DNA from: a virus
Lineage: Duplodnaviria; Caudoviricetes
IMG/VR virus record: IMGVR_UViG_3300033121_000376
Coordinates: 8,728-72,727 of that record
Length of the DNA stretch: 64,000 bases
Strand: one strand, 5' to 3'
Part shown: positions 4,013-45,851 of the stretch, one piece after another
How the letters are laid out: each line of letters begins with the position of its first letter
Position numbering within the stretch: the stretch's first letter is position 1
The notes under the pieces: model-generated
The model's database searches: none
The model's input: the letters and a program-made list of their open reading frames with translations, nothing else
Told to the model about the DNA's origin: nothing
Made by a program: the position numbers and the translations under genes

Positions 4013-4450
4013 TCAATAGTATGTAACTTCAACACCGGCCTCTTCAAACATAATGTTTGAGAGATCTCTTTCAGCGATCCATTGTTCGTTTATAGAATCG
4101 CCTTTCATTGTCGGGGCTATAACGCGCTTTATACCGGACTGAATAATAAGTTTTGCGCAGTTAGAACAAGGGTGTAACGCGGTGACAACGAGGGTTGACC
4201 CAAACAGTTTAGCCCCAACCCTGGCGGCTTGAGCAATAGCGTTTGCCTCTGCGTGGCTTATGAATTTCAACTTGGTAGACCTGTCAGTGAGTCTTGCATA
4301 ACTGTCCACAACCCCTCGCGGGAATCCGTTAAAACCAGTTGCTAAAACGGTGAAATCGTCGTCTATAACCACGGCACCGACTTTCGTAGACGGATCTTTG
4401 CTCATTTCCGATATAGCCTTCGCTATTTTTACGAATTTAATAATGTTCAT
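4013..4450 (-). CDS. dCMP deaminase
   Basis: SKDPSTKVGAV, GFNGFPRG, HAEANA, PCSNC zinc motifs. Confidence 0.92.
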   Translation of the reverse strand: MNIIKFVKIAKAISEMSKDPSTKVGAVVIDDDFTVLATGFNGFPRGVVDSYARLTDRSTKLKFISHAEANAIAQAARVGAKLFGSTLVVTALHPCSNCAKLIIQSGIKRVIAPTMKGDSINEQWIAERDLSNIMFEEAGVEVTYY

Positions 4451-4779
4451 ACAATCGACACCTCTGATATGAATAGATCAATCTTATTTTTTGTGTCCAG
4501 GCATTCAACGCGAAACCCTAATTTCTTCAATCGAGAAAATGCCCGTTCTTGCTCGGGTCGAAGTTTCTTTCCAGGACGTTTTGTCTCAACAAATATCGCC
4601 ACGCCACCTGATAGAAGGATTATTCGATCAGGTTCCGATCTTCTCGGCGTGTATTTGTGGATCTGCGAACCGGGAATCCGTCTTGAAATCTCGGTTCGCA
4701 GATATTTCTCGATTACAGATTCTCGTACCTTATACAAAGTCGTAAACCTTGGGTGTACAAAAGAATCCAGGAATTCCAC
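4447..4779 (-). CDS. VRR-NUC domain nuclease (true start probably near 4730)
   Basis: ESVIEKYL...PDRIIL...FVETKRPGKKLRPEQ PD-(D/E)xK motif typical of APSE-like modules. Confidence 0.85.
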   Translation of the reverse strand: MEFLDSFVHPRFTTLYKVRESVIEKYLRTEISRRIPGSQIHKYTPRRSEPDRIILLSGGVAIFVETKRPGKKLRPEQERAFSRLKKLGFRVECLDTKNKIDLFISEVSIV

Positions 4780-5236
4780 AACTTAAAAGCCTTTTTTTGT
4801 TGTAGTCTCCGATCGCTAAGAACACGCTTGGCGCACCCGCATTTCCTTTAGCACGATCCCCATTTGGTCTGTGAAACGTAAGCCTGCCTGCAGGGAAGAA
4901 CATAAGCCAGTCGTGTTTTATAACACGTTGGAACCAAGCGGTTTCAGTTCTTGCGAAAACTAGCGCGATTCCATCACCGTGTTCAGCAAGTTTGTGCAAC
5001 CACAACTCTGCTTCAGAACTGTAAGGAGGGTTGCACCACACCCTACCTTTCCACACAATGTTTAAACCGTTACCGTCAGATTCCGTAAAATGATTACGAG
5101 CTGTTGGCCAAGGTCTAGGATTAGGAGCTGCACACGGATCGAAATCAAAAGGTCCCAAAGTCTCAATAATGTTTTGAGGCGTCAGCCACACATTTGTTTC
5201 ACCCCTGTTCGGCCTCTCATGTTTTCCAATACTCAT
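4730..5236 (-). CDS. phage-type N6-adenine DNA methyltransferase
   Basis: WLTPQ, FDFDPCA, VWCNPPYS, ARTETAWF motifs of the phage Dam family. Confidence 0.88.
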   Translation of the reverse strand: MSIGKHERPNRGETNVWLTPQNIIETLGPFDFDPCAAPNPRPWPTARNHFTESDGNGLNIVWKGRVWCNPPYSSEAELWLHKLAEHGDGIALVFARTETAWFQRVIKHDWLMFFPAGRLTFHRPNGDRAKGNAGAPSVFLAIGDYNKKRLLSCGIPGFFCTPKVYDFV

Positions 5237-43626: not shown

Positions 43627-43923
43627 ATGCACACTCAACATGTTTACTCCAAAGCAGCCTTAGATCTGCAACCCACTTTAGGGAATGTAGACTGGCTTCG
43701 AGTGAATGAGACTGCGATAAAATCCGTGTTTCCTGAGACATGGACTCGCGTTAACCGTTCTGAAATAATGGAAATGGGGCGAGGATTGCGAAGGATTGGT
43801 ATTCGATGGGATGACGTTAACGAAATACCTAGAATCCTGGCGTTCTTGGAAAGAACGGGTTTTGTATTACGCAACGGCGGTATGGTAAAACGAAATAATT
43901 CGCCAATTTTTAAAATTCATTGA
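43627..43923 (+). CDS. hypothetical protein
   Basis: 98-aa ORF with GAGG RBS. Confidence 0.6.
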   Translation: MHTQHVYSKAALDLQPTLGNVDWLRVNETAIKSVFPETWTRVNRSEIMEMGRGLRRIGIRWDDVNEIPRILAFLERTGFVLRNGGMVKRNNSPIFKIH

Positions 43924-43931
43924 AAAACTTA

Positions 43932-43960
43932 TTGACGAAACCTAACAGCAGGCGTATAAT
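43932..43960 (+). promoter_or_regulatory. sigma70-type promoter for the ncRNA-Ro60 unit
   Basis: TTGACG-aaacctaacagcaggcg(17 nt)-TATAAT. Confidence 0.8.
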
Positions 43961-43996
43961 AATTACATGCTTTGGACAACTGTCAAACAAAGCATA

Positions 43997-44236
43997 AACG
44001 TGGCGAAGAAAGCAGGTTCTTCAAACTGTTATGCTACTTTTGGCAAACAGACTGCTAACGACAAATTCCCGTTGAATTTAGGTGGTGTAGGTTTCGGTTA
44101 CTTCTAGTCTATTGAAAAAATACCGCAGCCGCTCGATCCCCTATCAAAACAGGCAGCCACACGCTGCACAAAACAAATTGGTGGTGTATAAATCTGATAC
44201 TTCAGGAAAAAAAGACAGATTTAGACTGATCCCCAA
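43997..44236 (+). ncRNA. three tandem Y-RNA-like hairpin RNAs (43997-44073, 44079-44143, 44178-44236)
   Basis: each has paired 5'/3' ends (GTGGYG.../...TCCC), an inner stem and a (T)ACTTC/TTCTTC motif; the first carries GGCGAAG (GNCGAAN0-1G); immediately 5' of the Ro60 gene. Confidence 0.65.
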
Positions 44237-44303
44237 CTCTTCTCTGCAGCATACTCTATTCTTAAAGCCTCGCTACGAGGCGTAAACCACCTGGGAAAAA
44301 GTT

Positions 44304-45653
44304 ATGCGAACCAATGTAAAACCAACCTCTAAAACCAATTTTTACGGCGTGAAAACGGTTAATTCAAAGCCAATGGAATCTTTGCGCCGTTCTACGCTTT
44401 GTTGCTTATTGTGGGAAGATACTTTCTATGAAAGTGGAGCTACCATTGCGCAACGGATTAAAGAATTAGTACCGCTTTGCGATCCAGATCAAGTGGCCGA
44501 TCTCGCCATAGAATTGCGAAAAGTTCACAAATTAAGACACGTCCCACTTTTGATAGTCAGAGAATTGGCCAGAGACACAAGACGTTGTGCGCCCGGTCTT
44601 ATTAAAAACACGTTGTACAGCGTGATAGAGCGTCCTGATGAACTGACGGAGTTCCTGTCCCTGTATTGGGCAGATGATAAAGTTAACAACGCACGGAGTC
44701 GATCACCTCTGGCGAAACAAGTTAAGACTGGACTCGCAGCAGCTTTTGGTAAGTTTAACGAATACACGTTGGCGAAATACAATCGCGATGGGGCTATAAA
44801 GCTTCGTGACGTTCTGTTCATGGTTCACGCTAAACCAAAAGATGAATCTCAGAAAGATTTGTGGAACAGGCTTATTAAAAACGAGCTGGTCATACCGGAT
44901 ACCTGGGAAGTGGCGCTTTCGGCGGGTGATGACAAGAATCAGACTTTCACGCGACTGTTAAAAGCTAATAAACTGGGTGGACTAGCGATCATTCGAAACT
45001 TAAGAAATATGCACGATGCAAATGTCGATAAACACCTTGTTAAAAAGGCGTTGATTGACAAGGATAAGATGCGACACGTTCTTCCTTTCCGATATATCGC
45101 GGCGGCAAAAGCGGTTCCGTCTTGGGAGGATATTATCCAAGACGCAATGTTGAGTTCGCTGGCCGATGAAAAAGTTCTAACAGGAAAGACAATTCTATTA
45201 CTGGACAACTCCGGGTCTATGAATAGTCAATTGTCTGCTAAATCCGATCTTAAAAGGTCTGATGCCGCAGGCGCTTTAGCCATACTGCTCAGAGAAATCT
45301 GTGAAGAGTGTAGAATATTCTCTTTCTCTGACCTTGTAGCGGAAGTTCCACCAAGACACGGATTCCCACTTGCAGAGGCAATACTCAAGGCCGTTGGCAT
45401 CAGAGGAACAGACATGGGTCTTGCACTGAGGGAAATAGAAAACCTTGGGTATAAAGCTGACAGACTCATTGTTATTTCAGATGAGGAGTCAAGAACAAGG
45501 CTTCCACCAATGACCTGTGCTAAACGCAAGTATATGGTGAATATAGGATCTTCCGAGAACAGCATCGCGCACGGAGATTGGATAAAGCTGACTGGGTTTT
45601 CAGAAGGACTTGTGACGTACATCCAGGTGTTAGAAACAGAAAGTTCAATCTAG
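44304..45653 (+). CDS. rsr: TROVE-domain RNA-binding protein (Ro60/Rsr ortholog) with vWA domain
   Basis: LRRSTLCCLLWED.FYE, LRHVP, KYNRDG.IKLRDVL...H.KP, TWEVALS, LRNMH, LPFRY; MIDAS DNSGSM. Confidence 0.92.
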   Translation: MRTNVKPTSKTNFYGVKTVNSKPMESLRRSTLCCLLWEDTFYESGATIAQRIKELVPLCDPDQVADLAIELRKVHKLRHVPLLIVRELARDTRRCAPGLIKNTLYSVIERPDELTEFLSLYWADDKVNNARSRSPLAKQVKTGLAAAFGKFNEYTLAKYNRDGAIKLRDVLFMVHAKPKDESQKDLWNRLIKNELVIPDTWEVALSAGDDKNQTFTRLLKANKLGGLAIIRNLRNMHDANVDKHLVKKALIDKDKMRHVLPFRYIAAAKAVPSWEDIIQDAMLSSLADEKVLTGKTILLLDNSGSMNSQLSAKSDLKRSDAAGALAILLREICEECRIFSFSDLVAEVPPRHGFPLAEAILKAVGIRGTDMGLALREIENLGYKADRLIVISDEESRTRLPPMTCAKRKYMVNIGSSENSIAHGDWIKLTGFSEGLVTYIQVLETESSI

Positions 45654-45851
45654 CTCATAAAAAAATAGCCTACCTGCATACGCCGGTAGGCTACTCCCCA
45701 CAAACCACCAACCCCTTGATGTTGTCTAAATTATGGCTAAATCAAAGGTCAAAATCAAGTATTTATTTTAGAAAACAAAGATCAATAACACTTGCATAAA
45801 GCTTAAAAAGAACGGAAACTGATGTTTTCAGGACTTACTAGGTGATTAAGC

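What the first reader, a model, noticed from the sequence alone, without database searches (positions are those of the whole stretch)
43932..45653. Phage Ro60 preceded by its own promoter and three tandem Y-RNA-like hairpins
Seen in sequence: a near-perfect promoter (43932-43960) and a leader hairpin (ATGCTTTG.../...CAAAGCAT, 43967-43995) come first. Three related fold-back units follow. Unit 1 (43997-44073) pairs AACG(T)GG(C)GA with TTCCCGTT, has a bulged C and an AGCAG/CTGCT inner stem. Unit 2 (44079-44143) pairs TAGG.GGT with ATC.CCTA and GGTTTCGGT with ACCGCAGCC. Unit 3 (44178-44236) pairs TTGG.GGT with ATC.CCAA and AAATCTG with CAGATTT. Each inner stem is followed by TTCTTC/TACTTC. Established knowledge: Ro60/Rsr binds Y RNAs through a bulged terminal helix, bacterial Y RNA genes lie next to rsr, and GNCGAAN0-1G (here GGCGAAG at 44002) is a described Y-RNA motif. 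Inference: a compact phage Ro60 RNP with three short Y RNAs lacking the tRNA-like domain and without an rtcB partner in this window. Its role could be RNA decay or anti-defence.
Basis: partly seen in the sequence, partly recalled or inferred. Interest (0 to 1): 0.8.

Follow-up and report, generated by a model that had tools for sequence, protein, structure and literature searches.

The report
Phage Ro60 gene with short Y RNAs
An uncultured phage carries a Ro60 (TROVE) RNA-binding protein gene. Its leader encodes two clear and one degenerate short Y RNAs, so this is a good but ordinary example of a Ro60/Y-RNA module already described in bacteria and phages.

Summary
A TTGACG-17-TATAAT promoter (43932-43960), a 5' hairpin and three related fold-back units lie in front of a 449-aa Ro60/TROVE gene (44304-45653).

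The units belong to a conserved RNA family. I built a covariance model only from units found next to 59 other phage TROVE genes. In the whole 64-kb window, both strands, it hits exactly these three places:
- Unit 2: 61.6 bits, E 1e-16.
- Unit 3: 50.3 bits, E 4e-13.
- Unit 1: 15.4 bits, E 0.03, which is marginal.

The same family gives 110 hits in the phage loci and 317 in 80 bacterial TROVE loci. Every listed hit is on the TROVE strand, usually in tandem arrays just upstream. All 17 modelled base pairs covary.

Longer units in relatives, including Caulobacter phage CcrColossus, carry the classical YrlA tRNA-like core inside the same scaffold. The window's units lack that core.

The protein folds as a Ro60 ring. 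Its closest solved relative is Thermus phage phiLo Ro60, whose short upstream Y-like RNAs bind it and host PNPase in vitro.

This is a new member of a known kind, of moderate interest.

The parts
43932..43960 (+). sigma-70-type promoter, TTGACG-17 nt-TATAAT; the predicted start is about 43967
   Evidence: 11/12 match. It is one of 5 such sites in the window, against 1.25 expected. It lies just after the stop of the upstream ORF (43923).
43967..43995 (+). hairpin at the 5' end of the predicted transcript; inferred to stabilise the 5' end
   Evidence: -9.4 kcal/mol, z -4.05, 0/200 shuffles as good. The function is inferred.
43996..44075 (+). Unit 1, a divergent Y-RNA-like unit. Outer helix AACG/U bulge/GG with CC/CGUU; GGCGAAG at 44002-44008; inner stem AGCAG/CUGCU; loop begins UUCUUC and carries an extra hairpin.
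   Evidence: R2 gives 15.4 bits, E 0.027 over the window. R1 gives 5 bits. It shares GUUCUUC.ACUGUUA with the YrlA-type unit of CcrColossus. Membership is marginal.
44076..44147 (+). Unit 2, a short Y RNA on the YrlA scaffold without the tRNA-like core. UAGG/U bulge/GG with CCCC-UA; GGUGUAG; 9-bp inner helix; loop UUACUUC followed by an A-rich stretch.
   Evidence: R2 (no window sequences in the model) gives 61.6 bits, E 1.4e-16.
44153..44167 (+). small GC hairpin in the 34-nt spacer between units 2 and 3
   Evidence: -7.8 kcal/mol, z -3.55. Its role is unknown.
44175..44240 (+). Unit 3, a short Y RNA of the same family. UUGG/U bulge/GG with CCCC-AA; GGUGUAU; inner helix AAAUCUG/CAGAUUU; loop AUACUUC followed by an A-rich stretch.
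   Evidence: R2 gives 50.3 bits, E 4.1e-13.
44267..44281 (+). hairpin 22 nt before the start codon; no U tract, so it is not an intrinsic terminator
   Evidence: No + strand terminator-like site lies between the promoter and the gene.
44304..45653 (+). Ro60/Rsr homologue, 449 aa: TROVE HEAT-repeat ring plus vWA domain with a MIDAS motif (DNSGS)
45666..45693 (+). strong hairpin 13 nt after the stop codon; probably the 3' end or a stabiliser of the transcript
   Evidence: -17.9 kcal/mol, z -4.61. There is no U tract on the + strand, so its role as a terminator is uncertain.

Best explanation
This is a self-contained phage Ro60 ribonucleoprotein module. One sigma-70-type promoter drives a transcript of about 1.7 kb. 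The transcript starts with a protective 5' hairpin, carries a tandem set of short Y RNAs (units 2 and 3, and probably a decayed unit 1) in its leader, and then encodes the Ro60 protein.

Each unit has the same layout. Its 5' and 3' ends pair into a helix with a bulged U (N4-6GG-U-GG with CCCC-N4-6). Next comes an asymmetric internal loop with the conserved strands GGYGNAG and CGNUUGUU, which is the equivalent of the GNCGAAN0-1G Ro60-binding motif. Then comes an 8-9-bp covarying helix, and finally a loop that begins with the nearly invariant UACUUC and continues A-rich.

Inferred steps: the units are cut out of the precursor and bound by the phage Ro60 through the bulged helix. Their single-stranded loops tether Ro60 to a host partner, most likely the exoribonuclease PNPase, so that the phage reshapes host RNA decay during infection.

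Shown here: the anatomy, the family membership, the covariation, the linkage to TROVE genes, and the Ro60 fold. Inferred: processing, binding, the partner, and the biological role.
For: - The independent model R2 hits only these three sites in the window and in the whole record.
- R1 gives 110 hits at E<=0.01 in 59 phage TROVE loci, all on the TROVE strand. Most lie 11-600 nt upstream, in arrays of 1-6 units with typical spacers of 5-8 nt. With R2 and no filters, 58 of 59 loci have units.
- R2 gives 317 hits in 80 bacterial TROVE loci, and every listed hit is on the + strand.
- Covariation on the MAFFT alignment A2: 12 of 17 pairs change on both sides, and 0 of 500 shuffles reach the score. 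RNAalifold finds the same helices.
- Covariation on A3: 17 of 17 pairs change on both sides; 90.6% of cells are paired, against 38-49% when partners are slid.
- Long units in relatives hold the V, T, AS and D arms of YrlA inside the same scaffold. They coincide with significant sub-threshold Rfam YrlA hits.
- No protein gene is conserved next to the TROVE gene, so the RNAs are its only constant partner.
- No terminator separates the units from the gene.
- The protein has a Ro60 fold and is closest to phiLo Ro60.
- Literature: the phiLo Ro60 binds two short Y-like RNAs that the authors place in the noncoding region upstream of its gene, and forms ternary complexes with host PNPase (PMC12135203). 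M. smegmatis YrlA and YrlB lie upstream of rsr and come from one precursor, and bacteria usually have two or more Y RNAs, one of them a simple hairpin (PMC4201824).
Against: - There are no expression, processing or binding data for this phage, and its host is unknown.
- Units 2 and 3 lack the CGAA core, whose four nucleotides each contributed 3-4-fold to binding in phiLo (PMC12135203). The family tolerates Y at the C position and any base at the first A.
- Unit 1 is only marginal (E 0.03).
- The folding energies of the units are not better than shuffles.
- The PNPase partner is taken from other systems. In phiLo the complex slowed PNPase, whereas in Deinococcus it enhanced decay of structured RNA, so the direction of the effect is open.
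Confidence: 0.8

Rival explanations
1. The units are purely cis-acting. They form an mRNA leader operator on which Ro60 binds its own message to autoregulate translation or stability, as ribosomal-protein leaders do, and no free small RNAs are produced.
For: In the window the units sit in the 5' untranslated region, with no terminator before the gene. The last unit ends 63 nt before the ATG, and in many loci 11-100 nt before it.
Against: In several loci the units lie downstream of the gene (L017, L033, L052, crAss001, phiLo) or more than 1 kb away (L002, L040, L047). Long units of the same family are YrlA-type RNAs, which are known stable trans-acting RNAs (PMC4201824). M. smegmatis Y RNAs are processed from such a precursor. 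Autoregulation could still exist alongside the main explanation.
Confidence: 0.1
2. Only units 2 and 3 are functional Y RNAs. Unit 1 is a decayed remnant of a YrlA-type unit that lost its tRNA-like core, or part of the leader structure.
For: R2 gives unit 1 only 15.4 bits against 50-62 for the others. Its outer helix is 2 bp shorter, its loop reads UUCUUC instead of UACUUC, and its 3' strand reads AAUUCCC instead of GUUCCCC. It keeps a V-arm-like ACUGUUA, as in the YrlA unit of CcrColossus.
Against: It keeps the complete GGCGAAG motif, the bulged U, and compensating outer and inner helices. These would be expected to erode in a dead copy.
Confidence: 0.45
3. The RNAs act without Ro60, for example as decoys or sponges for a host nuclease or a defence protein, and the linkage to the TROVE gene is incidental.
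For: The most invariant element, UACUUC, lies away from the presumed Ro60 site. PNPase bound the phiLo Y-like RNAs without Ro60 (PMC12135203).
Against: The linkage is near-absolute. All 427 hits (110 in the phage loci and 317 in the bacterial loci) came from stretches picked because they encode a TROVE gene, and every listed hit is on the TROVE strand. In the window and in the whole 72.7-kb virus record the model finds no copy away from the TROVE gene. No other conserved neighbour exists.
Confidence: 0.05
4. The units are chance hairpins or generic repeats with no function.
For: The folding energies of the single units are not significant.
Against: E-values of 1e-16 and 4e-13 come from a model that holds no window sequence. 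Covariation is seen in all 17 pairs. The strand and position bias is strict.
Confidence: 0.01

Closest known systems
Thermus phage phiLo Ro60 with Yrl1 and Yrl2 (NAR 2025, PMC12135203; PDB 9KOP, 9L5Y)
   Same: Both are phage-encoded Ro60 proteins. phiLo Ro60 is the best PDB match by sequence (E 6e-19) and by fold. In both, short hairpin-type Y-like RNAs without a tRNA-like domain lie next to the gene on the same strand. Neither genome encodes PNPase or RtcB.
   Different: Protein identity is about 24-28%. The phiLo RNAs were picked by their CGAA motif, whereas the window's two strong units have UGUA at that place. My model's best match in phiLo lies just downstream of the gene, not upstream. 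Binding and the PNPase complex were shown for phiLo and not for this phage.
YrlA (Rfam RF02553; Chen et al. 2014, PMC4201824), including the YrlA-like RNAs of Caulobacter phage CcrColossus and of mycobacteriophages
   Same: It is encoded within 4 kb of the Ro60 gene on the same strand. Its 5' and 3' ends pair, it has a G-rich motif of GNCGAAN0-1G type, and a conserved YUAY follows the stem. Long units in homologous loci are YrlA-type and share the scaffold of the window's units.
   Different: The tRNA-like core (T, D, AS and V arms) that defines YrlA is absent from all three window units. Rfam YrlA gives no hit at E<=10.
Simple-hairpin Y RNAs: S. Typhimurium and M. smegmatis YrlB, and D. radiodurans Yrn2 (PMC4201824)
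   Same: [quoted passage not shown] In M. smegmatis they lie upstream of rsr and are processed from one precursor.
   Different: In those species the short RNA accompanies a tRNA-like Y RNA, and here none is present in the record.
Metazoan Y RNAs (Rfam RF00019)
   Same: They have a terminal helix with a single bulged pyrimidine and a conserved G-rich 5' strand that Ro60 contacts.
   Different: There is no detectable sequence or model similarity. The loops and the biogenesis (Pol III, La) differ.

Membership tests
Ro60/Rsr protein family | TROVE domain above the curated threshold | tested here: met
   PF05731 scores 43.6 bits against a cut-off of 23, E 3e-11.
Ro60/Rsr protein family | C-terminal vWA domain with a MIDAS motif | tested here: met
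   D301-x-S303-x-S305 and D393 are invariant in 35 homologues. The Pfam VWA_2 and vWA_Ro60 hits are below their cut-offs, but the model shows the vWA fold.
Ro60/Rsr protein family | Overall ring fold like solved Ro60 structures | tested here: met
   The model has pLDDT 85.3. The top 13 Foldseek PDB hits are all Ro60 (phiLo, Xenopus, human, Deinococcus), with TM 0.61-0.73 and E down to 1.5e-19.
Ro60/Rsr protein family | Binds Y RNA and misfolded RNA | not testable with these tools
   This needs EMSA or RIP.
YrlA (Rfam RF02553) | Encoded near the Ro60 gene (within 4 kb) on the same strand | tested here: met
   The units lie 63-308 nt upstream on the + strand.
YrlA (Rfam RF02553) | GNCGAAN0-1G motif near the 5' end | tested here: inconclusive
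   Unit 1 has GGCGAAG. Units 2 and 3 have GGUGUAG and GGUGUAU. The family consensus in 249 units (99 distinct phage rows in A3, 150 bacterial rows in A6) is GGYGNAG.
YrlA (Rfam RF02553) | tRNA-like domain with T and D arms | tested here: not met
   ARAGORN finds no tRNA. There is no T-loop motif in the window. The loops are 20-30 nt, or a single extra hairpin.
YrlA (Rfam RF02553) | Match to the Rfam covariance model | tested here: not met
   There is no YrlA hit at E<=10 in 43800-44400. The same model does hit long units in relatives at E 1e-5 to 1e-8.
YrlA (Rfam RF02553) | Conserved YUAY after the stem (the UA kink) | tested here: met
   Unit 2 has UUAC and unit 3 has AUAC, though unit 1 has UUCU. 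UACUUC is 85-100% conserved in the family.
TROVE-linked short Y-RNA scaffold family (models R1 and R2, defined here) | Significant match to a model built without the window | tested here: met
   Unit 2 scores 61.6 bits, unit 3 scores 50.3 bits, and unit 1 scores 15.4 bits, which is marginal.
TROVE-linked short Y-RNA scaffold family (models R1 and R2, defined here) | Both helices supported by compensatory changes | tested here: met
   The three window units also compensate among themselves.
Hairpin Y RNAs (YrlB, Yrn2, phiLo Yrl1 and Yrl2) | Bound and stabilised by Ro60; no tRNA-like core | not testable with these tools
   The absence of the core is shown. Binding is not testable. No sequences of these RNAs were available to compare.

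The most novel reading that the evidence does not exclude
Units without the tRNA-like core may be more than leftovers. They could be a distinct minimal class of Y RNA in which the invariant UACUUC plus A-rich loop is itself the docking site for the effector. Phages would then carry arrays of them, often with no tRNA-like member (roughly 40% of phage loci against about 10% of bacterial loci, crude count). The purpose would be to capture host PNPase or another nuclease as a takeover or anti-defence device, for instance by blocking nuclease-dependent immunity.
Probability: 0.2. Interest if true: 0.6.

Novelty: new member of a known kind. Interest (0 to 1): 0.35.

Why it matters
Ro60 and its Y RNAs form an RNA quality-control machine shared by animals, bacteria and phages, and what phages do with it is still unknown. 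This locus is a compact, cleanly delimited example with its own promoter, two or three minimal Y RNAs, Ro60, and no other partner gene.

The comparison made here also gives a usable covariance model and a consensus (GGUGGYGNAG ... UACUUC ... UUGUUCCCC). The Rfam searches run here found nothing at gathering score, neither in the window nor in the 20 phage loci scanned that way, and only sub-threshold YrlA matches in the seven loci scanned by E-value. The model finds hundreds of tandem Y RNA genes next to phage and bacterial TROVE genes, including in cultured phages (Xanthomonas phage Usaquen, CcrColossus, crAss001) where the idea can be tested.

For the window itself the result is confirmation, not discovery.

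Tried and rejected
- Rfam at gathering score on the window, and at E<=10 on 43800-44400, gave no Y RNA or YrlA hit, only chance hits.
- ARAGORN found no tRNA or tmRNA.
- blastn of the locus against 50,697 phage records found no match.
- Folding energies of the single units are not better than shuffles, so stability alone is no evidence. The minimum-free-energy fold of the whole leader mixes the units and is not informative.
- I searched for a conserved protein partner by clustering all ORFs of 60 loci. Only the TROVE gene and its shadow ORFs recur.
- RtcB is absent from the record. The record is estimated 79% complete, so absence is not proven.
- The small ORFs in the leader (43967-44107 and 44112-44285) were considered as coding and rejected, because conservation follows base pairing and not a reading frame.
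- The phiLo upstream gap gave no hit with my model. I could not check the published Yrl coordinates.
- Two reviews (PMC10870794, PMC6542706) and the supplements of Chen 2014 are not held, so I could not check whether arrays of more than two Y RNAs have been described.
- The host was not determined.
Full report
**1. What is in the sequence**

- A TTGACG-17-TATAAT promoter sits at 43932-43960 and matches 11 of 12 positions. Only five sites that good exist on both strands of the 64-kb window, against 1.25 expected in shuffles.
- Transcription would start at about 43967, directly into a hairpin at 43967-43995 (-9.4 kcal/mol, z -4.05).
- A 449-aa ORF then runs from 44304 to 45653.
- No terminator-like site lies between the promoter and the ORF on the + strand.
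- A strong hairpin at 45666-45693 (z -4.6) follows the stop codon.

The window is part of a 72.7-kb IMG/VR virus record that is estimated 79% complete.

**2. The protein**

- Pfam TROVE scores 43.6 bits, above its cut-off of 23. The vWA models score below their cut-offs.
- Among 35 homologues the MIDAS residues D301, S303, S305 and D393 are invariant.
- An AlphaFold model built on that alignment has pLDDT 85.3 and pTM 0.76.
- Its 13 best PDB matches are all Ro60 proteins: phiLo, Xenopus, human and Deinococcus, with TM 0.61-0.73.
- By sequence the only PDB hits are the Ro60 of Thermus phage phiLo, 9KOP and 9L5Y, at E 6e-19.

It is a compact Ro60/Rsr homologue.

**3. Are the units more than chance?**

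Energy alone says no. The three units fold no better than shuffles, with z -1.2, -0.5 and -0.6. Homology says yes.

I fetched 59 viral contigs that encode a TROVE homologue at 34-52% identity. A simple motif scan found the same layout upstream of most of them. The layout is:
- an outer helix N4-6GG, a bulged U, then GG, pairing with CCCC-N4-6;
- an internal loop with GGYGNAG on the 5' side and CGNUUGUU on the 3' side;
- an inner helix of 8-9 bp;
- a loop that starts with UACUUC.

On a MAFFT alignment of 18 short units (A2), 12 of 17 pairs show changes on both sides, and 0 of 500 shuffles reach the observed covariation. RNAalifold predicts the same two helices on its own.

Model R1, built from A2, found 110 matches at E<=0.01 in the 59 loci. 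Every one is on the TROVE strand. They lie mostly 11-600 nt before the start codon, in arrays of 1-6 units with spacers typically 5-8 nt long. On that alignment (A3) all 17 pairs covary, and 90.6% of cells pair, against 38-49% when the partners are slid. A3 is fitted to the model, so this count leans towards the structure.

Model R2 was built from A3 only and contains no window sequence. In the whole window, both strands, up to E 10, it finds three sites and nothing else. The whole virus record gives the same three sites.

| Site | Unit | Bits | E-value |
|---|---|---|---|
| 44076-44147 | 2 | 61.6 | 1.4e-16 |
| 44175-44240 | 3 | 50.3 | 4.1e-13 |
| 43996-44075 | 1 | 15.4 | 0.027 |

Units 2 and 3 are therefore solid members. 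Unit 1 is marginal.

**4. What the family is**

Twelve longer units from relatives were aligned (A5). Most of them carry a V stem, a T arm (GGUUCGAAUCC), an acceptor-like stem-loop and a D arm (GUAGCUCAGUUGGUAGAGC) inside the same scaffold. That is the circularly permuted tRNA-like core that defines YrlA (PMC4201824; bioRxiv 10.1101/312249).

Rfam's YrlA model (RF02553) hits several of these long units at E 1e-5 to 1e-8, below its gathering score. They include units in Caulobacter phage CcrColossus, Xanthomonas phage Usaquen and Bradyrhizobium. CcrColossus is named in the later phiLo paper (PMC12135203), which cites the 2014 study, as a phage with a Y RNA-like RNA.

R1 finds six units upstream of the CcrColossus gene and five upstream of the Usaquen gene. 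R2 finds 317 units in 80 bacterial TROVE loci (Acidobacteriota, Bradyrhizobium and others). All 300 listed hits are on the + strand.

So the window's units are the Ro60-binding stem part of the YrlA scaffold, with the tRNA-like core replaced by a short loop. The window has no tRNA, no T-loop motif, and no Rfam YrlA or Y_RNA hit at E<=10.

The nucleotides that stay nearly invariant even in short units are GUGG-Y-G-N-A-G, UACUUC and G-UUCCCC. The UA of UACUUC corresponds to the conserved kink nucleotides of YrlA (10.1101/312249).

Unit 1 keeps GGCGAAG. It has a shorter outer helix, UUCUUC in place of UACUUC, and a V-arm-like ACUGUUA shared with the CcrColossus YrlA unit. It may be a YrlA-type unit that lost its core.

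**5. Context**

Clustering all ORFs of 70 aa or more from 60 loci shows no protein gene that recurs next to the TROVE gene. RtcB is absent from the record. The Y-like RNAs are the only constant companions, so TROVE plus RNAs is a self-contained module placed in many different phage backgrounds.

A crude regex count suggests that loci without any T-loop-bearing unit are commoner in phages than in bacteria. In phages 18 of 46 loci lack one, and in bacteria 8 of 78.

**6. How it most likely works**

Shown here: one promoter, no internal terminator, units of a covarying TROVE-linked family, and a Ro60 fold.

Inferred from named precedents:
- The leader is processed into free RNAs of 55-80 nt. M. 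smegmatis YrlA and YrlB lie upstream of rsr and come from one precursor (PMC4201824).
- Ro60 binds the bulged helix with the GGYGNAG strand. In Xenopus Ro60 contacts GGUCCGA, and mutating any nucleotide of the CGAA motif of phiLo Yrl2 weakens binding 3-4-fold (PMC4201824, PMC12135203).
- The loop contacts an effector. In D. radiodurans and S. Typhimurium this is PNPase. In vitro, phiLo Ro60, its Y-like RNAs and host PNPase form ternary complexes that slow PNPase (PMC12135203).

Rivals:
- A purely cis-acting autoregulatory leader is unlikely as the only role, because units lie downstream of or far from the gene in several loci.
- Chance is excluded.
- Whether unit 1 is alive remains open.

**7. 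Comparison and novelty**

Phage Ro60 genes with YrlA-like RNAs were reported in 22 phages in 2014 (PMC4201824). Short upstream Y-like RNAs of a phage Ro60 were characterised biochemically and by cryo-EM in 2025 (PMC12135203). Three highly transcribed regions upstream of an Rsr-like gene were proposed as Y RNAs in Listeria phage CKA15 (PMC12282133).

The window is therefore a new member of a known kind. As to membership:
- It is a Ro60.
- Its RNAs are not YrlA in the strict sense, because the tRNA-like core was tested and is absent.
- They work like, and share ancestry with, the Ro60-binding module of YrlA.
- They resemble the hairpin-type second Y RNAs (YrlB, Yrn2, phiLo Yrl1 and Yrl2).

What goes a little beyond the literature I could read is the family-wide picture: a sharp consensus, arrays of up to about seven units, UACUUC kept without the tRNA core, and frequent loss of the core in phages. 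I could not read the 2019 and 2020 reviews to check this.

**8. Verdict**

Interest is moderate to low (0.35).

Noticed in passing
L063 (Bacteroides phage crAss001, NC_049977, reverse complement) 4495-4579, 4589-4667, 5068-5214: R2 without filters finds Y-like units just downstream of the crAss001 TROVE gene (gp96), in a 900-nt stretch with no annotation (33.7, 18.8 and 17.2 bits). A well-studied cultured phage may carry unannotated Y RNAs.
   Followed up: partly
L064 (Thermus phage phiLo, MH673673, reverse complement) 4022-4088 and 4226-4281: The best match of the family model in phiLo lies 13 nt after the Ro60 stop and overlaps the annotated CDS phiLo_25. Nothing matches in the upstream gap, where the 2025 paper places Yrl1 and Yrl2. 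The published coordinates could not be checked.
   Followed up: partly
L065-L144 (bacterial genome contigs: Acidobacteriota, Bradyrhizobium, others): TROVE homologues about 50% identical to the phage protein are preceded by arrays of up to about seven Y-RNA units. There are 317 hits in 80 loci, and most loci have at least one tRNA-like unit.
   Followed up: partly
L062 (Xanthomonas phage Usaquen, MW822536) 2346-2960: A 700-nt unannotated gap upstream of a 'hypothetical protein' (a TROVE homologue, 48% identical) holds five units, two of them YrlA-like.
   Followed up: partly
window 45666-45693: A strong hairpin lies right after the Ro60 stop, with an A tract before it and no U tract after it. 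On the - strand it would read as an intrinsic terminator, yet the neighbouring ORFs are on the + strand.
   Followed up: no
window 43959-43986, - strand: A promoter-like site on the opposite strand (TTGACA-16-AATTAT, 10/12, with TG) overlaps the leader hairpin and the -10 box of the + strand promoter. It may be a chance consequence of the AT-rich promoter region.
   Followed up: no
L009 2124-2196; L003 1749-1822; L004 several; L060 2155-2227: tRNA genes, and one tRNA-sized match that Rfam assigns to its tmRNA model (L009 2124-2196), often lie beside the Y-RNA arrays in related phage loci. The window itself has no tRNA.
   Followed up: no
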